Position numbers and translations under genes: made by a program | The notes under the pieces: generated by a model | Database searches by the model: none | Told to the model about the DNA's origin: nothing | Seen by the model: only the letters and a program-made list of their open reading frames with translations | NCBI RefSeq assembly: GCF_013122565.1 | Contig: NZ_CP053258.1 | DNA from: Escherichia coli | GTDB taxonomy: Bacteria; Pseudomonadota; Gammaproteobacteria; Enterobacterales; Enterobacteriaceae | Reading direction: 5' to 3' (one strand) | Length of the DNA stretch: 64,000 nt | In this document: positions 806 to 41,709 of the stretch, in pieces | How the letters are laid out: every line of letters begins with the position of its first letter | Position numbering within the stretch: position 1 is the first letter of the stretch

Positions 806-1603
806 AACTTGCTCCTTAGCCGTTATCGTTTCGAACATGTCATCCTTTTCATTATTTACATCCTTGTCCGAATCGTTGTTCAATATAGTAAACGCCTATA
901 AGAACTTTGCCCTTCGTGAACTAATACGTCTATTAACACTAATCAATACTTCAGATTTATCCATCACGCACTCCATATATTGATCCTAAGTAAAATTCCT
1001 GGTTGTTATCAATTTGTAAACAGTGAACAAAAAGTTAACGTTTGCGGATTACTGCCCAAGAATAAGTTATCAATAACCAGTTTGTGATCTCTGAAGAATA
1101 TTACTAAAGTTAAAATGTAATCCGATTTAAATATCGAGTCTCCTTGTTTCGACTTAAGCTGGCAATTGGATTGCCAGCTTTCTTTTAACGCATTGAAATT
1201 ACCTGAGTAAATAACGCATTCATGTCTTCAGGTTTTTATATAGCGTCTGGAGACACGGATATTTATGCAATGTAATCAACGCCAGTTGCAATAAAATGAA
1301 CCCGGATTACTTATTTAACCGCCCATATCATCAACGCTTACGGAACTCTTTGTTCACTTTCCCACAGCACTTTTAAAACATTAAACCTGACTACGGAAAA
1401 TATCAGCCATGATAATGTTTGAAATGGCTAATTTGCCATGGAATGAAAAAATTTAGATTAAATTCAGTAGGTTGAAATAATCACCAGCAGGTGATTATTT
1501 CAATGATAGTGCGAAAATGATCTGCAACGCTGTGAAGCGGAGAGAGTATTAATTAGATCATAGTCACATCAAGTGACTATGATCCAGATGACAACCGGGA
1601 TAA
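806..1603. promoter_or_regulatory. Long gadE upstream control region / hdeD-gadE intergenic (~800 bp, AT-rich, no convincing ORF)
   Basis: Non-coding AT-rich stretch between divergent-convergent AFI genes; established knowledge that gadE has an unusually large multi-promoter control region (an antisense sRNA, ArrS, is reported here in K-12 but I cannot place it precisely). Confidence 0.5.
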
Positions 1604-2176
1604 TTATTGCTGCTTAACGAACAAACTGGCGAAGCTGAACAGGCTGGCGGCGCTAAATATCAGTTCAATTCCCACCAGTGTCGAAACCAGCGTTACAGAC
1701 ACCATCGGCGTTGCACCAAGGAATATCCAGGCAATGACGATATCCAGCACACCAATAACGAGCTGTAGCCAGCTGCCTTTCATTGAACGCTGACGATACC
1801 AACTCATCAGGCGAATAACCCCTGCAACACAGAACAAACCGGCAATAAATGCCGCTATGGCAAAAATGCCCAGCTCCGGTGCGCGGATGAAGAAATAGCC
1901 GATCAATAAATAGGCGACTGCGACGAGGAAACCGGATAATACCGGCCAGAAATTATGACTGCGGTTGCTGAATAATCCAACAATAAGCGCAATGCCCGAG
2001 CAGATTAATAATGCACCCACTACCGTGCTTAAAATATCGCCAGAGACGAACGGGAAACTGATACACAGCAACCCGACGATAAACAGCAGCACGGCAATAA
2101 ACTGGATTGCTCTGCGATGTTTTTTAAGCATCTCCAGATCAAACTTCAAAATTGTTGCCTTATCTATATATAACAT
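1604..2176 (-). CDS. hdeD: Acid-resistance inner membrane protein HdeD (190 aa)
   Basis: Multi-TM hydrophobic translation matching HdeD; position divergent from hdeA. Confidence 0.9.
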   Translation of the reverse strand: MLYIDKATILKFDLEMLKKHRRAIQFIAVLLFIVGLLCISFPFVSGDILSTVVGALLICSGIALIVGLFSNRSHNFWPVLSGFLVAVAYLLIGYFFIRAPELGIFAIAAFIAGLFCVAGVIRLMSWYRQRSMKGSWLQLVIGVLDIVIAWIFLGATPMVSVTLVSTLVGIELIFSAASLFSFASLFVKQQ

Positions 2177-2430
2177 AGAACCACCCTATAAAATTAAGAA
2201 GAAAATCCCCTGCTATCAATCTATGCCAAAAACGCGTCTAAGAATGCAGTCGATTTAATAAAAATTTCCTAATTACAGTATCTGATGCATCTGTAACTCA
2301 TTGTATTGAAATAAAAATATCTGATTTTGATATTTTCTATCAACATGACATATACAGAAAACCAGGTTATAACCTCAGTGTCGAAATTGATTCGTGACGG
2401 CTCTTTCACTTTATAGTTGAGGATATTACG

Positions 2431-2763
2431 ATGAAAAAAGTATTAGGCGTTATTCTTGGTGGTCTGCTTCTTCTGCCAGTTGTGAGCAATGCAGCGGATG
2501 CGCAAAAAGCAGCTGATAACAAAAAACCGGTCAACTCCTGGACCTGTGAAGATTTCCTGGCTGTGGATGAATCCTTCCAGCCAACTGCAGTTGGTTTTGC
2601 TGAAGCGCTGAACAACAAAGATAAACCAGAAGATGCGGTTTTAGATGTTCAGGGTATTGCAACCGTAACCCCAGCTATCGTTCAGGCTTGTACTCAGGAT
2701 AAACAAGCCAACTTTAAAGATAAAGTTAAAGGCGAGTGGGACAAAATTAAGAAAGATATGTAA
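2431..2763 (+). CDS. hdeA: Periplasmic acid-stress chaperone HdeA (110 aa, signal peptide)
   Basis: Translation MKKVLGVILGGLLLLPVVSNA... matches HdeA; followed by hdeB. Confidence 0.95.
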   Translation: MKKVLGVILGGLLLLPVVSNAADAQKAADNKKPVNSWTCEDFLAVDESFQPTAVGFAEALNNKDKPEDAVLDVQGIATVTPAIVQACTQDKQANFKDKVKGEWDKIKKDM

Positions 2764-2878
2764 TTCCGGGAATGCGTTACATCGTACTTCCTTGCATATT
2801 GAACAGGCCGGAATATCTTCTTAAAAAGCAGCTATTCCTCCTGTTCATATATAATCTCTATATTGAATGGGTTACAAA

Positions 2879-3205
2879 ATGAATATTTCATCTCTCCGTA
2901 AAGCGTTTATTTTTATGGGCGCTGTAGCGGCTTTGTCACTGGTAAACGCACAATCTGCGCTGGCAGCCAATGAATCCGCTAAAGATATGACTTGCCAGGA
3001 ATTTATTGATCTGAATCCAAAAGCAATGACACCGGTTGCATGGTGGATGCTGCATGAAGAAACAGTATATAAAGGTGGCGATACTGTTACTTTAAATGAA
3101 ACCGATCTCACTCAAATTCCTAAAGTGATCGAATACTGCAAGAAAAACCCGCAGAAAAATTTGTATACCTTCAAAAATCAAGCATCTAATGACTTGCCGA
3201 ATTAA
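2879..3205 (+). CDS. hdeB: Periplasmic acid-stress chaperone HdeB (108 aa from MNISSLRK)
   Basis: Translation matches HdeB; signal peptide; ORF-track start at 2867 is probably 12 nt too long. Confidence 0.9.
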   Translation: MNISSLRKAFIFMGAVAALSLVNAQSALAANESAKDMTCQEFIDLNPKAMTPVAWWMLHEETVYKGGDTVTLNETDLTQIPKVIEYCKKNPQKNLYTFKNQASNDLPN

Positions 3206-3268
3206 TGAGGTACAAGTAAAAAGGAGTAGCAAGTTGAGCCATCTTGCTGCTCCTTTTTGCATTTTTAT

Positions 3269-3916
3269 ATGACAGCAGAATTTATTATACGTCTTATACT
3301 CGCGGCAATTGCCTGTGGCGCTATTGGCATGGAAAGGCAAATGCGCGGCAAAGGAGCAGGGTTACGCACACATGTATTAATTGGCATGGGAAGCGCCCTG
3401 TTTATGATTGTTTCGAAATATGGTTTTGCTGACGTGCTGTCTTTAGATCACGTCGGACTGGACCCCAGCCGTATTGCTGCTCAGGTGGTGACGGGCGTCG
3501 GGTTTATCGGTGCAGGTAACATTCTCGTTCGTAACCAAAATATTGTAGGTCTCACGACGGCAGCGGATATCTGGGTGACCGCCGCCATTGGTATGGTTAT
3601 TGGCAGCGGTATGTACGAACTGGGTATTTATGGTTCAGTGATGACCTTGCTGGTGCTGGAAGTCTTCCATCAATTAACCTTCCGCCTGATGAACAAAAAT
3701 TACCATTTACAGCTGACATTAGTGAACGGTAATACGGTATCAATGCTCGACTGGTTTAAGCAGCAAAAAATAAAAACGGATTTAGTTTCGTTGCAGGAAA
3801 ATGAAGATCATGAAGTGGTCGCCATTGATATCCAGCTTCATGCCACAACGTCGATAGAAGATCTGTTGCGATTATTAAAAGGTATGGCAGGGGTGAAAGG
3901 CGTTTCAATTAGCTAA
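3269..3916 (+). CDS. yhiD: MgtC-family inner membrane protein YhiD (215 aa)
   Basis: Translation from MTAEFIIRL... matches YhiD; hydrophobic N-terminal MgtC-like domain. Confidence 0.85.
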   Translation: MTAEFIIRLILAAIACGAIGMERQMRGKGAGLRTHVLIGMGSALFMIVSKYGFADVLSLDHVGLDPSRIAAQVVTGVGFIGAGNILVRNQNIVGLTTAADIWVTAAIGMVIGSGMYELGIYGSVMTLLVLEVFHQLTFRLMNKNYHLQLTLVNGNTVSMLDWFKQQKIKTDLVSLQENEDHEVVAIDIQLHATTSIEDLLRLLKGMAGVKGVSIS

Positions 3917-3957
3917 TCTGTGTGGCAGCGTAGTCAGACTCACCGTAAGCCTGAAAT

Positions 3958-4488
3958 TCACACCAGATAATCAATATGCTGATGGCGTACCAGCTCATTG
4001 ATCCGCTTAAGATTGAGGATCATCATGATATTGTGTTTATGGCAGTAGAACGTTTTTAGCGATATTTTCAGTTTCTCCAGAATATCTTCCGTTGTCATTT
4101 GATTCGCAATGCAGCTCAGAACCTGATGTTGCTTACGCGAAAGTGACACAGCCGCTTCAGGCACAGAGCAGTAACTGCCATTGATGAGTGCGACAAAATC
4201 AATGATAGTGATAGTCCGCGGAACAAAGGTCACCGGTACTTTCCCCAGACAGCGTTTAATATTAAAGGGGGAGAAAATAATTACATGGACAGGTTTTAAT
4301 CGTTCAATTTGAGTGAGAAAATTAGAATGAAATACATTATTCATTAATGTATCAATAATGACGAAGGCATTCTGATGCAACATTACGTCGATCTCTTCTT
4401 CGTTCTGTATATGAACGACATTACCTTTACTCAGAATGTTTTTCATCGCGGTGAAGAACATCGTATCCCTGGTAATTATAAGAAACAT
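3958..4488 (-). CDS. dctR: LuxR-family regulator DctR/YhiF (176 aa)
   Basis: 176-aa ORF with C-terminal LuxR HTH (…LSRKQHQVLSCIANQMTTEDILEKLKISLKTFYCHKHNIMMILNLKR); synteny between yhiD and slp. Confidence 0.85.
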   Translation of the reverse strand: MFLIITRDTMFFTAMKNILSKGNVVHIQNEEEIDVMLHQNAFVIIDTLMNNVFHSNFLTQIERLKPVHVIIFSPFNIKRCLGKVPVTFVPRTITIIDFVALINGSYCSVPEAAVSLSRKQHQVLSCIANQMTTEDILEKLKISLKTFYCHKHNIMMILNLKRINELVRHQHIDYLV

Positions 4489-5457: not shown

Positions 5458-6681
5458 TTATGGTATTATATTCTGATAATGATTTGATAAGCGAATTCTT
5501 TTGCCTGTTGGTATTTCTATTTCCACCCCATAATTTATATCTTTTTCATTAGGGAGTGGCCTCTTTAAATATGGAGTGTGTGACATTTTTTTTGGGTTAA
5601 GCGTCTCGTATTGAAATACTTCGAATTGATATTCAGACATTTCTGCCCATGTTTGAATTTTATTGTATCGAGAAAGTGTCGTAAAGGCTTTAACTTGCTT
5701 ATAACATTCTTTTTTGAATTCTTGCTGATATTTTAATATGTTGTTGTATGAAAGATTGGTTATCCTGGCCTCTAAAAATTTAATTATTGTCGAAGCAATT
5801 TCCGCTTTTGCTCGTAAAAAGTTGTCATTAATGGTTAATAATGTTGAAAATAAACCTTCGATTTGTTTGTCAATATATTGTTCATCTTTATGTGATTTGG
5901 GGGTAGGGTGTTCCTTATGTGAAAAAATAGTGTCACATAAATTTGCGTCAGTGAAATTAATATTAAGTAGATCTTCGAAATAAAACCTTGACAAGGTCAG
6001 AACGAACCCGGACAGGTTCTGTCCTGTCATATTGAAATCAATAAAGTTGGTTCCGGCAAAGACTTTCATCCTGTTTTTATTTTCACTGTGCTCAAGATAT
6101 AACTTCGTCATTTTTTGATACAGACTTTGAATATCTTTTATATTAGTTGGTAAGTCAGCTCGTTGTTCAGCAATAAAATTAGTATCTGAAAACATGGTTT
6201 GGACACAGAATGTTATGGGTATTCCCTCTTCTACGCTAATTTTAGTTATGATTGCCTTGTCGGGTTTAGGATTAGCGACAACAATGATTCGACATTCAGC
6301 ACTTTTGTTCTTTTCGTATCTAATGTTACTAATTTGATTAAGTATTTCCTGTGCCTGCCGCGTAGGTGGTGTCGAACTTATCGATTCAATGTTAGTAATA
6401 AGACTTACAAGTTGAGCCACAACTTTGGAGTAGTCTGCATTTGTATATTTGGTGTTCGTGCGGCACGCATAAATTTGTGGGAGGTGTTGCCGCGCTAAAT
6501 CATATTGTTTAGGGTTGTATCCTTCTCCAGAGAATGTGGAATTAATGGGTTGTTGTTCTTCCCGATTATCACAAGGCCACATCGGTGTGTCTGGTGTTTT
6601 AACATTGTCGGTATCTGTTGTGCGGTTATAAATATCGCCGTGATATGTATTTATCATACCTGGGGTAAAGTCAATTGACAT
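5458..6681 (-). CDS. yhiS: Uncharacterized protein YhiS, intact 407-aa form
   Basis: Position between slp and arsC, where K-12 carries yhiS interrupted by IS5; long uninterrupted AT-rich ORF; no IS5 sequence here. Confidence 0.6.
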
Positions 6682-33714: not shown

Positions 33715-33990
33715 ATGAGAACCAAGGTACAGGCTTTACGGAAGAAACAAAAAAATACATTGGATCAAATATTTAAAACTCCTGTTCCTCAAGGGATCAA
33801 GTGGTCTGATATAGAGTCACTGGTTAAAGCATTAGGCGGAGAAATTAAGGAAGGAAGAGGTTCGCGTTGTAAGTTCATACTAAATATGAGCGTTGCGTGT
33901 TTCCATCGGCCTCATCCGTCGCCAGATACCGATAAAGGCGCTGTAGAAAGCGTGCGTGACTGGTTACTAAGTATAGGGGTAAAACCATGA
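33715..33990 (+). CDS. Putative HicA-like (YcfA family) type II toxin, 91 aa
   Basis: Small basic protein with a ...GSRCKF...FHRPHP...LLSIGV... pattern resembling HicA mRNA interferases; 4-nt overlap (atga) with the following RHH gene. Confidence 0.5.
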   Translation: MRTKVQALRKKQKNTLDQIFKTPVPQGIKWSDIESLVKALGGEIKEGRGSRCKFILNMSVACFHRPHPSPDTDKGAVESVRDWLLSIGVKP

Positions 33991-34346
33991 TCAAACTGAA
34001 GACGCCAAACTCTATGGAGATTGCCGGGCAACCTGCTGTTATCACTTACGTGCCAGAACTGAATGCATTTCGTGGCAAATTCCTGGGCTTGTCAGGTTAT
34101 TGTGATTTTGTCTCTGACAGCATTCAGGGGCTGCAAAAAGAAGGGGAACTTTCCCTGCTAGAGTATCTTGAGGATTGTAAAGCTGCGGGTATTGAGCCGT
34201 ATGCGCGTACAGAAAAGATTAAGACCTTTACGTTACGCTATCCAGAATCGCTGAGTGAACGCCTTAATAATGCGGCTGCGCAGCAACAAGTCTCTGTTAA
34301 TACCTATATTATTGAAACACTGAATGAGCGTTTGAATCATTTATAA
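33987..34346 (+). CDS. Putative HicB-like antitoxin with C-terminal ribbon-helix-helix, 119 aa
   Basis: C-terminal RYPESLSERLNNAAAQQQVSVNTYIIETLNERL is a CopG/RHH-type DNA-binding motif; translationally coupled to the upstream small ORF. Confidence 0.5.
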   Translation: MIKLKTPNSMEIAGQPAVITYVPELNAFRGKFLGLSGYCDFVSDSIQGLQKEGELSLLEYLEDCKAAGIEPYARTEKIKTFTLRYPESLSERLNNAAAQQQVSVNTYIIETLNERLNHL

Positions 34347-34465
34347 ATTTTAGCGGCGTACATTACGCAGAATATCTGCCTTTACAGGATCTATCTATGC
34401 AACTGAACTTAATTTTATAAATTAAGTTCAGTTAATATCTTTTCTTTCCTCGTTTTAGAAATAAC

Positions 34466-37269
<2,804 letters not shown>

Positions 37270-37273
<4 letters not shown>

Positions 37274-38214
37274 GCGTGCGCTCCTTCATGACGACGAATG
37301 CGCGGGTCCAGCGCGGCGTTTAGCAAATCGACAATCAAATTACAGACCACAAAAACCACCACCATCATCAGCGTAAAGCACTGGATCACCGGATAGTCAC
37401 GGTTAAAAATCGCCGACACCGCATAGCGCCCGACGCCCGGCCAGGCAAAGATGTTTTCGATAATCATCGTCCCGCCAATCAGTTCGCCAATGTGCATCCC
37501 CACGGCGGTGATCATCGGCAGCGAGGCATTGCGCAGAATATGACGACGTTCGGTCTGTTTGTCGTTCAGGCCGCGCAGCCGCGCCCAGGTGACGTGACGC
37601 TGACCGGCGACGTCCAGCATACTGGCGCGCAGCAGCCGCGCGTTAATCGCCAGCGACATAAAGGCAATGGAAACCGCAGGCAAAATGATGTGCTGCCAGC
37701 CGCCGTAGCCCATCGCGGGTAGCCATTGCAGATACACCGAAAACGCCATCACCAGTAAAAACGCCAGCCAGAAGTTAGGCATCGACACGCCAAGAAACGC
37801 GATGAAACGTACGGCGAAATCCGGCAGACGATCGCGATGGCGCGCCGCCCAGATACCGAGCGGCACGGAAGTGAGCAGAATTAATACCAGCGCGGCACCT
37901 GCAAGTTCCAGCGTGGCGGGCAGGAAGTTCAGCATATCGTCCAGCACCGGGCGTTGGCTGGCGAATGAGATACCAAAGTCAAGATGCAGCGCCTTCCACA
38001 ACCAGGTACCGTACTGGACGTACAGCGGCTGATCCAGTCCCAGCATGGTGCGGGTAGAGGCCAGCATCTCCGGCGTCGGCGGCAGGTTAGACAGACGCAA
38101 ATAATCGAGCGCCGGGTCGCCGGTACCGAGGCGCAGCATCAGAAAAATGATCACCGAGGCGGCGAGCACCATCGGGATCAGCAGCAGAAAGCGGCGTAAT
38201 ACGTAACGCAACAT
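37270..38214 (-). CDS. nikB: Nickel ABC transporter permease NikB
   Basis: Membrane permease; operon position. Confidence 0.9.
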
Positions 38215-39788
38215 TAAGGTTTCACCGGTTTAATCTGTTCGAACGGAATTTCGGTGGCGATCGGCGCGTAGGGGATGTTACCCAGCTCCGGTTTTGATAC
38301 CACCATCATTGAGATGTAACTGATAGGCAGATAAACCGCCTCGTCATGCAGACGGGTCAGAATGTCGCGATACAGTGCCTGACGTTGTGCTTCGTCATGG
38401 GTCGCCAGCACTTCGCCGATCTCTTTATCAATCAGCGGCTTGTCGGCTAATCCTTGCTGTGCCTGGAAATCAGCGTGCGACGGTACGCGCATTGAACTCA
38501 GGAAGGCGTGTGGATCGTATGGCGCGCCCCAGGTGCGGTGGAAAATCATGCCAAAACGACCGTCGCGCTGACGAGCATAGATACTGCTCTCTTCTTCGCC
38601 AATCAGCGAGACATCTGCGCCAATCTGGCGCATATCAGCCTGAATGATTTCCGCCATCGATTTGCTTAACGCATCGGTGCCGATGAACGAAAGTTCAATG
38701 CGCAGCGGCTGACCATTTTTCTCGCGGATGTCTTTGCCCGCAGGAAGCGTCCAACCGGCTTTTTCGAGCAACTCTTTCGCTTTCTGCGGATCGTACTGGC
38801 GCGGTTTCAGGCCGAGGTTGGCGTAGGGCACAGAAGGGGCAAACAGGGTGTCGGCGACCTGCTGGGTGCCATACAACGCGTTATCAATCAGCGATTTTTT
38901 GTTTACCGCGTAATTAAGAGCTTCACGTACTGCCAGCTCGTTGGTAGGGGCTTTGGCGGTGTTGAGCGCCAGCATCACGGTTTCGATCGGCTGTGACAGT
39001 TGGGTGTGGTACGCCGGATTCTGGCTAAAGCGGGCGAAAGTATCGAGCGGTAATAACCCTTCATTACCGTACAGCAGGTCGATATCGCCAGTTTCAAACG
39101 CCACCGCGCGGGTAGTCGGGTCCGGGATCACGTTAAAGGTGATCTTTTTAATCGCCGGCTTTTCGCCCCAGTAGTTTTCGTTACGGACGAAGACATCGTA
39201 CTGATTCAGTTTCGATTCCTGCAAAACCCACGGCCCGGTGCCAATCGGCGCTTTAATCCCGTTCATGGTTTCATGGTTTTTAAACTGCGAGGGGGCGATA
39301 AAGCGGAAAGGACGTGGCAGGGCCAGTTCTTGCAGGAAAGGATAGTAGGCGCTTTTCAGGGTGATTTGCAGCTCGTTTTTACTGAGTGCTTTGACATCAA
39401 CAATCTGGTTTGCCAGCTCCAGCCAGGCGTGACGTTGACGGTTATCGAGCACTGCGCGGAAGTTTTCTGCCGCCGCCTCTGCATCAAACGGTTCGCCGTT
39501 AGAGAATTTCACGTCATCACGCAGGGTGAAGGTCCAGGTTTTACCATCTTCTGAATGAGTCCAGCTTTTTGCCAGCCACGGGATCACCGAACCGTCTGCC
39601 TGATATTTCACCAATGGTTCATAAACCATGCTCTGGGCGAACATCTGGTTAGGCGTGTAAAGGTGCGGGTTTAGTGGCCCGACATTCACCGGCCAGGCGG
39701 TGGTGATTTCATCTGGTGCAGCGGCATGGACGATAAAAGACGCACAAGCCAGCAGCGCAAATAGAGTGCGGCGGAGTGTGGAGAGCAT
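38214..39788 (-). CDS. nikA: Periplasmic nickel-binding protein NikA (524 aa)
   Basis: Signal peptide plus family-5 solute-binding protein; operon position. Confidence 0.9.
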
Positions 39789-39825
39789 GGTAACCCCAAT
39801 GGATTAAAATAGATGGCGGAAATAA

Positions 39826-39853
39826 GTATGACGATTTTAAGTATTCGTCATAC
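39826..39853. promoter_or_regulatory. NikR operator in the nikA promoter
   Basis: GTATGA-N16-TCATAC perfect dyad (gtatgacgattttaagtattcgtcatac), 38-65 bp upstream of the nikA start. Confidence 0.8.
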
Positions 39854-39898
39854 TGATTACCTGTTCTGGATCAATAGATGGGCAGTCGGGTGGGCGGA

Positions 39899-40486
39899 TC
39901 AGTTAACTGAATCGATCCATTGCACACTGTCGGCGGTGAGCGTAAAGGGAGTAGGGGTGCAGATCGCCAGGCTTAAATTTTCTAGCTGACAATGGCTGAC
40001 TGACAGCGAGGAGTGATAGGTGCTGTCTACGCTGACGATTTGCCAGGCGCTGCCACCACGCTGTTTAACGATGGCTTCTTTGCGCGTCCAGATGCGCCAG
40101 AACATTTCCAGTTGCTGATCAGGATGCACGGCGTCCATCTCAGCGTGTTCCCCGAGGCTGAATACGGCGTTCGCCAGCCAGCGCCAGTTGGCGCGCGGGC
40201 GAATCACTTCGATATCGCAGCCGACTTCGCCTTCATCGCTCAACAGCAGGGCGATATCGTCACCGCTATGGCTTAAGTTGAACCATAGCGGCGTTTCCGG
40301 CGCGAATGCCGGTTTGCCTTGTTCGCCATAGATGATCTCCGGTAGCGGGGAAAGCGTGTGCGAAAGCAATGCACGCCCCGCCAGCCAGCGTTCGCGTCGT
40401 GGACCTTGCGGTGCTTGCTCGCGTAAACCCGGTGGCAGTGGAGCTGCGCTTAAGGTCGAAACTTTCCCCAGAACTATCCGATACAT
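39899..40486 (-). CDS. acpT: 4'-phosphopantetheinyl transferase AcpT/YhhU (195 aa)
   Basis: Translation matches AcpT; synteny next to nikA. Confidence 0.85.
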   Translation of the reverse strand: MYRIVLGKVSTLSAAPLPPGLREQAPQGPRRERWLAGRALLSHTLSPLPEIIYGEQGKPAFAPETPLWFNLSHSGDDIALLLSDEGEVGCDIEVIRPRANWRWLANAVFSLGEHAEMDAVHPDQQLEMFWRIWTRKEAIVKQRGGSAWQIVSVDSTYHSSLSVSHCQLENLSLAICTPTPFTLTADSVQWIDSVN

Positions 40487-40540: not shown

Positions 40541-41590
40541 TCATCCCGGTAACCGACTTTTCGGTCTGCCCGGTCCCAGTAAAATCGCCAGTTTGCTACC
40601 GCCTTTCGTAGTTTCCATCCAGATTTTACACACGCTGGTTAATGGCACCGAAAGTAGCATCCCTACCGGGCCGAGCAGCCATCCCCAAATTAACAATGAA
40701 AGAAATACCACCATGGTGGACATCCCCAGGCGATGGCCCATCATCCGTGGCTCTAAAATATTGCCGATGACCATATGGACAACTAAAAACAATGCGCCGA
40801 CCAGAATACATTCGTAAATACCATTAAACAGCAGCACCTGAATCATTGGCGGTACGGCGGAAATTACCGCGCCGATATTAGGCACGTAGTTGAGCAAAAA
40901 CGCCAGTACTGCCCACATCAGCGCAAACTGCACCCCCATCAGCTCCAGCCCCAGCCAGACGATGACACCCGTCCATAAACTGAGTAGCGTCTTTAACGCC
41001 AGATAATGCGAAACGCCTTTAAGTGCGCGGTGTAATCCCGCGATGTGAATCTGTGGGTTATTCAGCGCAAAACGCATTTTGTAAGGGACGTGGCGCACTT
41101 CAAACAGCATAAAAACTACGGTCATCACCAGCAGAATTACGCTCGCCATTGCCCCGGAAAGCCCGGTCATTAGCGCCGTGGTGAAGGTAACCACTTTTTC
41201 CGAGTCCATCCGCTGCAGCATTCGCTCTGGCGACATATGCAAATTAAGAAAAGGCAACATCTCCTGCAATTTAAAAAGTTTGCGCGTCAGCTCCTTATTA
41301 AACTTCGGCAGCATAGAGATAAATTCGTTAAACGATGCCGCCAGTACGCCAACCAGCGCGGTTAGTGCGATCAGCATCACCACCACCACAATCGTAATGG
41401 CAACGGGGCGTTTTACTCCCCGTCGAACAAACCAGGTAACGAGCGGGTTGAGGACGATGGCAAAAAACAGCGCCAGTAACAGCTGCACAATGATATCTGC
41501 CGCTGCGTGAATGCCCGCGAGGATCACTACCAGCGAGGCCAGCTTGAGCAGAATGTGCATGCCCGTTTTATCGGGTTGAGGGGTTTCCAT
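40541..41590 (-). CDS. yhhT: AI-2E (UPF0118) family transporter YhhT (349 aa from METPQPDKTG)
   Basis: Polytopic membrane protein; synteny. Confidence 0.8.
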   Translation of the reverse strand: METPQPDKTGMHILLKLASLVVILAGIHAAADIIVQLLLALFFAIVLNPLVTWFVRRGVKRPVAITIVVVVMLIALTALVGVLAASFNEFISMLPKFNKELTRKLFKLQEMLPFLNLHMSPERMLQRMDSEKVVTFTTALMTGLSGAMASVILLVMTVVFMLFEVRHVPYKMRFALNNPQIHIAGLHRALKGVSHYLALKTLLSLWTGVIVWLGLELMGVQFALMWAVLAFLLNYVPNIGAVISAVPPMIQVLLFNGIYECILVGALFLVVHMVIGNILEPRMMGHRLGMSTMVVFLSLLIWGWLLGPVGMLLSVPLTSVCKIWMETTKGGSKLAILLGPGRPKSRLPG

Positions 41591-41709
41591 TGGGGCTTCC
41601 TTGTGACTTTTTGTATTAAGTGTAGCGGGAGTCACGCCAGCAATATTCTGATTCTTACTGCTGATTTTCACGTCAGCACGTGGTAAAAATGAAACACTGT
41701 TGTAAAAAT

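What the first reader, a model, noticed from the sequence alone, without database searches (positions are those of the whole stretch)
39826..39853. Perfect NikR operator dyad in the nikA promoter
GTATGA-N16-TCATAC is present with both half-sites perfect, immediately upstream of nikA; this is consistent with nickel-dependent repression by the NikR encoded at the end of the operon.
Basis: partly seen in the sequence, partly recalled or inferred. Interest (0 to 1): 0.15.

Follow-up and report, generated by a model that had tools for sequence, protein, structure and literature searches.

The report
Known E. coli NikR operator at nikA
This is the textbook binding site where the nickel sensor NikR switches off the E. 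coli nickel-uptake operon; it is real, correctly interpreted, and already fully characterised, so it is ordinary.

Summary
GTATGA-N16-TCATAC sits at 39826-39853, once in the window, with 0 of 100 shuffles matching and about 0.004 expected. The window is E. coli chromosome. nikABCDE-nikR are all on the minus strand (nikA 39788..38214, nikR 34867..34466), so the dyad lies 37 bp upstream of the nikA ATG in the sense of transcription. The 110-bp acpT-nikA intergenic region is identical to K-12 MG1655. The window's NikR is 100% identical to the protein crystallised on this operator (PDB 2HZV). Published work shows nanomolar Ni-NikR binding to exactly this sequence.

New detail from this check:
- The perfect palindrome is 10 bp per arm (39825-39834 / 39845-39854).
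- A -10-like TAAAAT (39839..39834) lies inside the spacer.
- An FNR box (39874..39861) lies 7 bp upstream. With the published -40.5 FNR position, the start is about 39827, so the operator covers about -26 to +2. This implies promoter occlusion.

In 80 nikA loci from other species, 75 carry the dyad with at most one mismatch. All 75 such sites in 1.04 Mb are upstream of nikA, with none elsewhere.

Verdict: already known, low interest.

The parts
39826..39853 (-). NikR operator, GTATGA-N16-TCATAC. On the nikA sense strand it reads GTATGACGAATACTTAAAATCGTCATAC.
   Evidence: Exact and unique match, 0 of 100 shuffles. Identical to K-12. Literature consensus and binding data. Conserved upstream of nikA in 75 of 80 species loci.
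39825..39834 (.). Promoter-proximal arm of the perfect 10-bp inverted repeat (AGTATGACGA on the + strand). It contains one NikR half-site.
   Evidence: Half-site positions carry 1.4-2.0 bits across 71 distinct orthologous sites.
39845..39854 (.). Promoter-distal arm of the perfect 10-bp inverted repeat (TCGTCATACT on the + strand). It contains the other NikR half-site.
39834..39839 (-). -10-like hexamer TAAAAT inside the operator spacer (operator positions 15-20).
   Evidence: Read directly from the sequence. TAnnnT at the same operator positions in 70 of 75 orthologous promoters. Spacer positions 15, 16, 18, 19 and 20 carry 1.7-1.9 bits, whereas positions 12-14 carry 0.3-0.5. Assigning it as the -10 is an inference.
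39827..39827 (-). Inferred nikA transcription start (A, operator position 27).
   Evidence: Inferred from two things. The FNR site centre at 39867.5, combined with the published FNR position of -40.5 for nikABCDE (PMC3688515), gives 39827. This is also 7 nt downstream of the TAAAAT hexamer. It was not measured here.
39861..39874 (-). FNR box TTGATccagAACAG (8 of 10 matches to TTGAT-N4-ATCAA), 7 bp upstream of the operator.
   Evidence: Sequence. nikABCDE is listed as directly FNR-activated, with ChIP evidence, at -40.5. The box is in the same register (-40.5 relative to operator position 27) in 57 of 75 orthologous promoters by best score. In 9 more the TTGAT half-site is in that register but was scored 6 bp off.
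38214..39788 (-). nikA, the periplasmic nickel-binding protein; first gene of the regulated operon.
   Evidence: NCBIfam TIGR02294 equivalog, 838 bits against a cut-off of 393. RefSeq annotation.
34873..38214 (-). nikB (38214..37270), nikC (37273..36440), nikD (36440..35676) and nikE (35679..34873): the permease and ATPase subunits. Their reading frames overlap or abut.
   Evidence: all are above the equivalog cut-offs.
34466..34867 (-). nikR, the nickel-responsive ribbon-helix-helix repressor that binds the operator.
   Evidence: NF002815 and TIGR02793 equivalogs. 133/133 identical to PDB 1Q5V/2HZV. H76, H87, H89 and C95 (high-affinity Ni site) and E30 and D34 (second site) are present (residue roles from PMC7055735).

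Best explanation
This is the single, well-characterised operator of the E. coli nickel repressor NikR, in the FNR-dependent promoter of nikABCDE-nikR.

How it works:
- Each domain inserts its beta-sheet into the major groove of one GTATGA half-site. The two half-sites are two helical turns apart.
- The spacer between the half-sites contains the -10 hexamer (TAAAAT), and the promoter-proximal half-site contains the transcription start. Bound NikR therefore occludes RNA polymerase and overrides activation by FNR, which is bound 7 bp upstream at -40.5.
- The result is that the nickel importer is made only when the cell is anaerobic (FNR active, hydrogenases need nickel) and nickel is not yet in excess.
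- nikR is the last gene of the operon, so repression also lowers read-through nikR transcription.

Shown by others' experiments: binding, nickel dependence and the structure of the complex. Shown here: sequence identity to the characterised system and the phylogenetic footprint. Inferred here: the exact -10 and +1 assignment, and hence occlusion as the mode of repression.
For: - The motif is exact and unique, with 0 of 100 shuffles matching and 0.0037 expected.
- The window is E. coli: the region is found in 5425 of 5426 complete genomes, and the intergenic region is identical to K-12.
- All six nik genes are above NCBIfam equivalog cut-offs.
- NikR is 100% identical to the PDB 2HZV chain, and the metal ligands are present.
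- Literature: Ni-NikR binds GTATGA-N16-TCATAC with nM affinity; the complex is crystallised in the cis conformation with one DNA-binding domain per half-site; EcNikR represses the single target nikABCDE.
- FNR directly activates nikABCDE from -40.5.
- Within E. coli, the 66-bp core is at least 99% identical in 5140 of 5425 genomes. In the two variants examined (97.0% and 95.5% identical over the core, the lowest rows of a listing spread across the whole ranking), all changes fall outside the half-sites.
- Across species, 75 of 80 nikA loci have the dyad with at most one mismatch. All 75 such sites in 1.04 Mb are upstream of nikA, against about 2.3 expected anywhere and 0.05 expected in the upstream segments.
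- The half-sites stay conserved in Alphaproteobacteria and Halomonas, where the -10 and FNR elements are not.
Against: Nothing contradicts it. Four limits apply.
- No binding experiment can be done here.
- The primary papers (Chivers & Sauer 2000; Schreiter 2006; Rowe 2005) were not held in the library, so binding data are cited through reviews.
- The consensus promoter scan found no sigma-70 promoter in the region. This is expected for an activator-dependent promoter with no -35, but it means the -10 and +1 placement rests on the published -40.5 value plus conservation.
- No independent nikR promoter was detected by the simple scan.
Confidence: 0.97

Rival explanations
1. The 10-bp palindrome acts at the RNA level, as a hairpin that terminates or attenuates read-through transcripts from acpT. 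acpT ends 45 bp upstream on the same strand. This role could replace or add to the protein-binding role.
For: As RNA, the nikA-sense strand folds into the 10-bp stem at -16.6 kcal/mol, with z = -5.0 and 0 of 200 shuffles folding as well. A U-rich stretch, UUAUUU, follows it. No other terminator-like site was found between acpT and nikA.
Against: - Any perfect palindrome folds well, so the z-score is uninformative.
- The stem is AT-rich (4 G-C pairs of 10) with a 10-nt loop, and the terminator scan did not call it.
- In orthologs, half-site changes are one-sided and break pairing (A3/C26 in 9 of 57 distinct sites), and inner positions such as 10/19 are mostly A/A. This is the pattern of protein recognition, not of a conserved stem.
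- The inferred nikA start lies inside the 3' arm, so nikA mRNA lacks the hairpin.
- Direct NikR binding is published.
Confidence: 0.03
2. The dyad is a chance palindrome, or the site of some other regulator such as FNR, NarL or Fur, and has nothing to do with NikR.
For: None specific. The region does carry a separate FNR box.
Against: - 0.0037 sites are expected by chance and 0 of 100 shuffles matched.
- The dyad tracks nikA across genera with no off-target site in 1.04 Mb.
- It persists where the FNR box is absent.
- The FNR site is a distinct sequence 7 bp away.
- The literature assigns this sequence to NikR.
Confidence: 0.005

Closest known systems
E. coli K-12 nikABCDE operator of NikR (Chivers & Sauer 2000; complex structure PDB 2HZV, Schreiter et al. 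2006)
   Same: The DNA is identical across the whole 110-bp acpT-nikA intergenic region. NikR is identical. Operon order and reading-frame junctions are the same.
   Different: Nothing at the locus itself. The strain background differs from K-12: hicAB lies next to nikR, and the surrounding 25 kb is at best 97.8% identical to any complete E. coli genome.
Enterobacterial NikR box consensus GTATGAT-N13/14-ATCATAC (comparative genomics; quoted in PMC545781)
   Same: The same half-sites and spacing. My 71 distinct orthologous sites give the consensus GTATGATGAAT...TAAAATCGTCATAC.
   Different: E. coli has C/G rather than T/A at positions 7/22. That pairing gives this site its perfect 10-bp arms.
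Helicobacter pylori NikR operators (ureA, nixA and others) and the delta-proteobacterial NikR box GTGTTAC-N13/14-GTAACAC
   Same: The same protein family (ribbon-helix-helix plus a tetrameric nickel-binding domain) and the same dyad geometry, with two half-sites about two helical turns apart.
   Different: The half-site sequences differ. HpNikR is pleiotropic and can activate as well as repress, whereas EcNikR has one repressed target.

Membership tests
E. coli-type NikR operator | Dyad GTATGA-N16-TCATAC with both half-sites and 16-bp spacing. | tested here: met
   Exact match at 39826-39853. Consensus as stated in PMC7055735 and PMC4486848.
E. coli-type NikR operator | Located in the promoter of a nickel-uptake operon, overlapping core promoter elements. 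| tested here: met
   The dyad is 37 bp upstream of the nikA ATG. A -10-like TAAAAT lies in the spacer and an FNR box at -40.5 sits 7 bp upstream. The overlap with the -10 and +1 is inferred, not mapped here.
E. coli-type NikR operator | A cognate NikR is encoded in the genome, with the ribbon-helix-helix domain and the nickel ligands intact. | tested here: met
   nikR at 34867..34466. NF002815 scores 235 bits against a cut-off of 83. 133/133 identical to the PDB 2HZV chain. H76, H87, H89 and C95 are present.
E. coli-type NikR operator | The site is conserved upstream of orthologous nikA genes (phylogenetic footprint). | tested here: met
   75 of 80 loci carry it with at most one mismatch. There are no off-target sites in 1.04 Mb, and the half-sites carry 1.4-2.0 bits per position.
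E. coli-type NikR operator | Nickel-dependent binding by NikR, and nickel-dependent repression in vivo. | not testable with these tools
   Reported in the literature for the identical sequence (refs 38-40 of PMC7055735; PMC3177205). The primary papers are not held.
Class II FNR-activated promoter | An FNR box (TTGAT-N4-ATCAA) centred near -41.5 or -40.5, with FNR occupancy. | tested here: met
   TTGATccagAACAG at 39874..39861 matches 8 of 10 positions. The ChIP and expression category 'directly activated', at -40.5, comes from PMC3688515. Occupancy itself was not testable here.
Intrinsic (Rho-independent) terminator | A GC-rich stem, a short loop and a following U-run. | tested here: not met
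   The terminator scan did not call it. The stem has 4 G-C pairs of 10 and the loop is 10 nt. There is no compensatory pattern in orthologs.

The most novel reading that the evidence does not exclude
The most novel reading not excluded is that the operator palindrome also works as an RNA hairpin. E. coli's C7/G22 pair lengthens its arms to 10 perfect bp. The hairpin would insulate nikA from acpT read-through transcription, so the same 30 bp would act both as a protein operator on DNA and as a weak terminator or pause on RNA. A more modest alternative concerns some other Escherichia lineages, where the nikA leader has gained an ERIC-like repeat (L008) or an 81-bp tandem array (L006) between the operator and the ATG. 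These insertions could alter post-transcriptional control of nickel uptake.
Probability: 0.04. Interest if true: 0.3.

Novelty: already known. Interest (0 to 1): 0.05.

Why it matters
It matters only as a correct annotation. The site links nickel import to nickel sufficiency and, through the adjacent FNR box, to anaerobiosis and hydrogenase synthesis. It is also a standard part for nickel biosensors. Nothing here changes current understanding. The cross-species footprint simply reconfirms that the half-sites, and not the spacer, are the NikR-specific determinant. It also shows that in Enterobacterales the spacer is constrained by an embedded -10 element.

Tried and rejected
- I looked for further NikR-like sites in the window with up to 3 mismatches. 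There were 24 against 19 expected, so no enrichment. The best other site has 2 mismatches, at 33853-33880. Rejected as chance.
- The consensus sigma-70 promoter and terminator scan of 39700-40000 found nothing. The promoter was therefore placed using the published FNR position and conservation.
- I tried to read the primary papers: Schreiter 2006 (PMC1564233), Rowe 2005 (by DOI and as PMC1236639) and Phillips 2008 (PMC5914170). None is held. A search for NikR+nikABCDE+FNR+NarL+promoter returned 0 papers. NarL-dependent repression and the separate weak nikR promoter are therefore known to me only from memory and are not used as evidence.
- I considered a plain DNA-pattern scan of genome contigs and rejected it. 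A 12-14-base pattern would give roughly 1,000-4,000 chance hits in 298 Gb and would have no denominator. The NikA-anchored scan was used instead.
- The scan for an internal nikR promoter in 34250-35300 gave only chance-level hits on the wrong side of the gene.
- The RNA-hairpin or terminator reading was tested and rated unlikely.

Full report
**Observation.** The sequence GTATGACGATTTTAAGTATTCGTCATAC occupies window 39826-39853. It is the only exact match to GTATGA-N16-TCATAC in the 64 kb, and none of 100 dinucleotide-preserving shuffles produced a match. From base composition, 0.0037 sites are expected. Relaxing to three mismatches gives 24 sites against 19 +/- 4.5 expected, so the window has no second site. 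The arms AGTATGACGA (39825-39834) and TCGTCATACT (39845-39854) are perfectly complementary over 10 bp with a 10-bp spacer, and the symmetry continues at 88% to 17 nt.

**Context.** The window is E. coli chromosome. A 701-bp stretch around the site is found in 5425 of 5426 complete E. coli genomes, always on the chromosome, under the annotations acpT and nikA. All the nik genes are on the minus strand:
- nikA 39788..38214
- nikB 38214..37270
- nikC 37273..36440
- nikD 36440..35676
- nikE 35679..34873
- nikR 34867..34466

Their reading frames overlap or abut. Each scores well above the curated cut-off of the corresponding NCBIfam equivalog model: NikA 838 bits against 393, and NikR 235 bits against 83. 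RefSeq names them identically in matching genomes. The dyad ends 37 bp before the nikA ATG, inside a 110-bp acpT-nikA intergenic region. nikR is indeed the last gene of the cluster.

**Identity with the characterised system.** The whole intergenic region is identical to K-12 MG1655. The window's NikR is identical at 133 of 133 residues to the chain deposited in PDB 1Q5V, 2HZA, 2HZV and 3OD2. It carries the high-affinity nickel ligands H76, H87, H89 and C95 and the second-site residues E30 and D34 (residue roles from PMC7055735).

The literature states the following:
- The nickel- and DNA-bound structure shows the cis conformation, with each ribbon-helix-helix domain on one half-site of the two-fold symmetric operator.
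- In E. coli, NikR represses a single target, nikABCDE, through this 'well-defined palindrome' (PMC3177205).

The primary papers themselves are not held in the library.

**Promoter anatomy (partly inferred).** Read on the nikA sense strand, the region is ...cTATTGATccagAACAGgtaatcaGTATGAcgaatactTAAAATcgTCATACttatttcc...ATG.
- TTGATccagAACAG (39874..39861) matches the FNR consensus at 8 of 10 positions and is centred at 39867.5.
- Myers et al. 2013 list nikABCDE among operons directly activated by FNR, with the site at -40.5 (PMC3688515). That places +1 at 39827.
- This start is exactly 7 nt downstream of a -10-like TAAAAT (39839..39834) inside the operator spacer.
- The operator therefore spans about -26 to +2.
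- The simple sigma-70 scan finds no promoter here, as expected for an activator-dependent promoter without a -35 hexamer.

From this I infer that bound NikR occludes the -10 and +1 region and overrides FNR activation.

**Variation within E. coli.** The 66-bp core (FNR box plus operator) is at least 99% identical in 5140 of 5425 genomes and 95-99% identical in the remainder. I fetched two variants, SCU-109 (97.0% identical over the core) and 1424KP (95.5%); these were the lowest rows of a listing spread across the whole ranking. In both, the substitutions fall one base upstream of the FNR box, between the FNR box and the operator, further upstream, and (in 1424KP only) at spacer position 11. 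None touches a half-site.

**Cross-species footprint.** A NikA-anchored scan of one genome per species returned 80 loci, with NikA identity from 99% down to 49%.
- 75 of the 80 carry the dyad with 16-bp spacing and at most one mismatch: 53 perfect and 22 with one mismatch.
- All 75 such sites in the 1.04 Mb of fetched DNA lie upstream of nikA. 73 end 8-41 bp before the predicted start codon. The other two, L008 and L006, end 149 and 471 bp before it because of insertions in the leader.
- Chance predicts about 2.3 sites anywhere and 0.05 in the upstream segments.
- Information content is 1.4-2.0 bits at all twelve half-site positions. It is 0.3-0.5 bits at spacer positions 12-14, but 1.7-1.9 bits at spacer positions 15, 16, 18, 19 and 20.
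- That spacer signal is TAnnnT, present in 70 of 75 loci. It supports the -10 assignment.
- The FNR box is in the same register in 57 of 75 loci by best score. In nine more the TTGAT half-site is in register.
- In the alphaproteobacterial loci (Rhizobium, Consotaella, Fulvimarina, Stappia) and in Halomonas, the half-sites and spacing persist while the TAnAAT and FNR elements do not. In several of these loci nikR is divergent from nikA and shares the intergenic region with it. The dyad is therefore the element that travels with nikA and nikR.
- The five loci without a site with at most one mismatch are Samsonia (2 mismatches), Stappia (15-bp spacer), and the most distant homologs at about 50% identity (Desulfovibrio, Paenibacillus, Domibacillus).

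**Rivals.** acpT ends 45 bp upstream on the same strand, so I tested whether the palindrome could be an RNA hairpin or terminator. It folds at -16.6 kcal/mol with z = -5, but any perfect palindrome does. Several points count against the rival:
- The stem is AT-rich with a 10-nt loop, and the terminator scan does not call it.
- In orthologs, the changes in the half-sites are one-sided and break pairing (TCATAC to TCACAC in 9 of 57 distinct sites), and inner symmetric positions are mostly non-complementary.
- The inferred start lies within the 3' arm, so nikA mRNA would not contain the hairpin.

I rate an additional RNA role at about 3%. Chance or another regulator is excluded by the statistics and by the published binding data.

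**Comparison and novelty.** This is not merely like the E. coli NikR operator. It is that operator, base for base, with the identical repressor. Every defining feature I could test is met. The one I cannot test, nickel-dependent binding and repression, is published for the identical sequence. The finding is already known.

**Noticed in passing.** These are listed separately below: repeat-element insertions in the nikA leader of two other Escherichia lineages; a perfect 15-bp AT-rich palindrome between the convergent nikR and hicB genes; the hicAB module next to nikR; and the unexpectedly modest 97.8% best identity of the surrounding 25 kb to any complete E. coli genome.

Noticed in passing
L008 5856-5975 (Escherichia sp. 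MOD1-EC7003): About 112 bp is inserted between the intact FNR box and NikR operator and the nikA start codon, so the operator ends 149 bp before the ATG instead of 37. The insert is a dispersed intergenic repeat, with a median of 7 copies per E. coli genome at about 83% identity. From memory it resembles the ERIC/IRU element.
   Followed up: partly
L006 5530-5960 (Escherichia sp. E1V33): About 434 bp is inserted at the same place in the nikA leader. It includes an 81-bp GC-rich unit repeated 3.1 times in tandem at 5643-5894. The operator is intact but ends 471 bp upstream of nikA.
   Followed up: partly
window 34401-34433: A perfect AT-rich palindrome with 15-bp arms and a 3-nt loop (AACTGAACTTAATTT-TAT-AAATTAAGTTCAGTT) lies between the convergent nikR (-) and hicB (+) genes. 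The scan called it terminator-like on the + strand. It may be a bidirectional terminator.
   Followed up: no
window ~33700-34350: A hicA/hicB type II toxin-antitoxin pair lies between yhhJ and nikR, judged by the matching layout of strains Combat11I9 and 6EVA. From memory, K-12 has the rhsB region here instead.
   Followed up: no
window 27000-51900: The best match of this 25 kb to any of 5426 complete E. coli genomes is only 97.8% identical, and only 8 records have a best-matching place at 99% or above. The query also hits a median of 12 places per genome, so it contains a repeated element. By contrast, the nik promoter region is 100% identical to K-12. The source strain seems to belong to a lineage poorly represented among complete E. 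coli assemblies, or the region is mosaic.
   Followed up: no
L071-L076 (Rhizobium, Stappia, Fulvimarina and relatives): In five of these six loci nikR lies upstream of nikA on the opposite strand; in L074 (Stappia) it is upstream on the same strand. The GTATGA-N16-TCATAC dyad (15-bp spacer in L074) lies just upstream of nikA, with no enterobacterial -10 or FNR elements in register. A single operator may therefore control both genes there.
   Followed up: partly
L001 7489-13701 (E. coli Combat11I9) compared with window 40541-41671: Upstream of acpT, strain Combat11I9 has a cluster of fatty-acid/aryl-polyene-like genes (ketoacyl-ACP synthases, FabG2, an ApeP dehydratase, an MMPL transporter). 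The window, like K-12 and 6EVA, has yhhT there. This is a variable junction right next to acpT.
   Followed up: no
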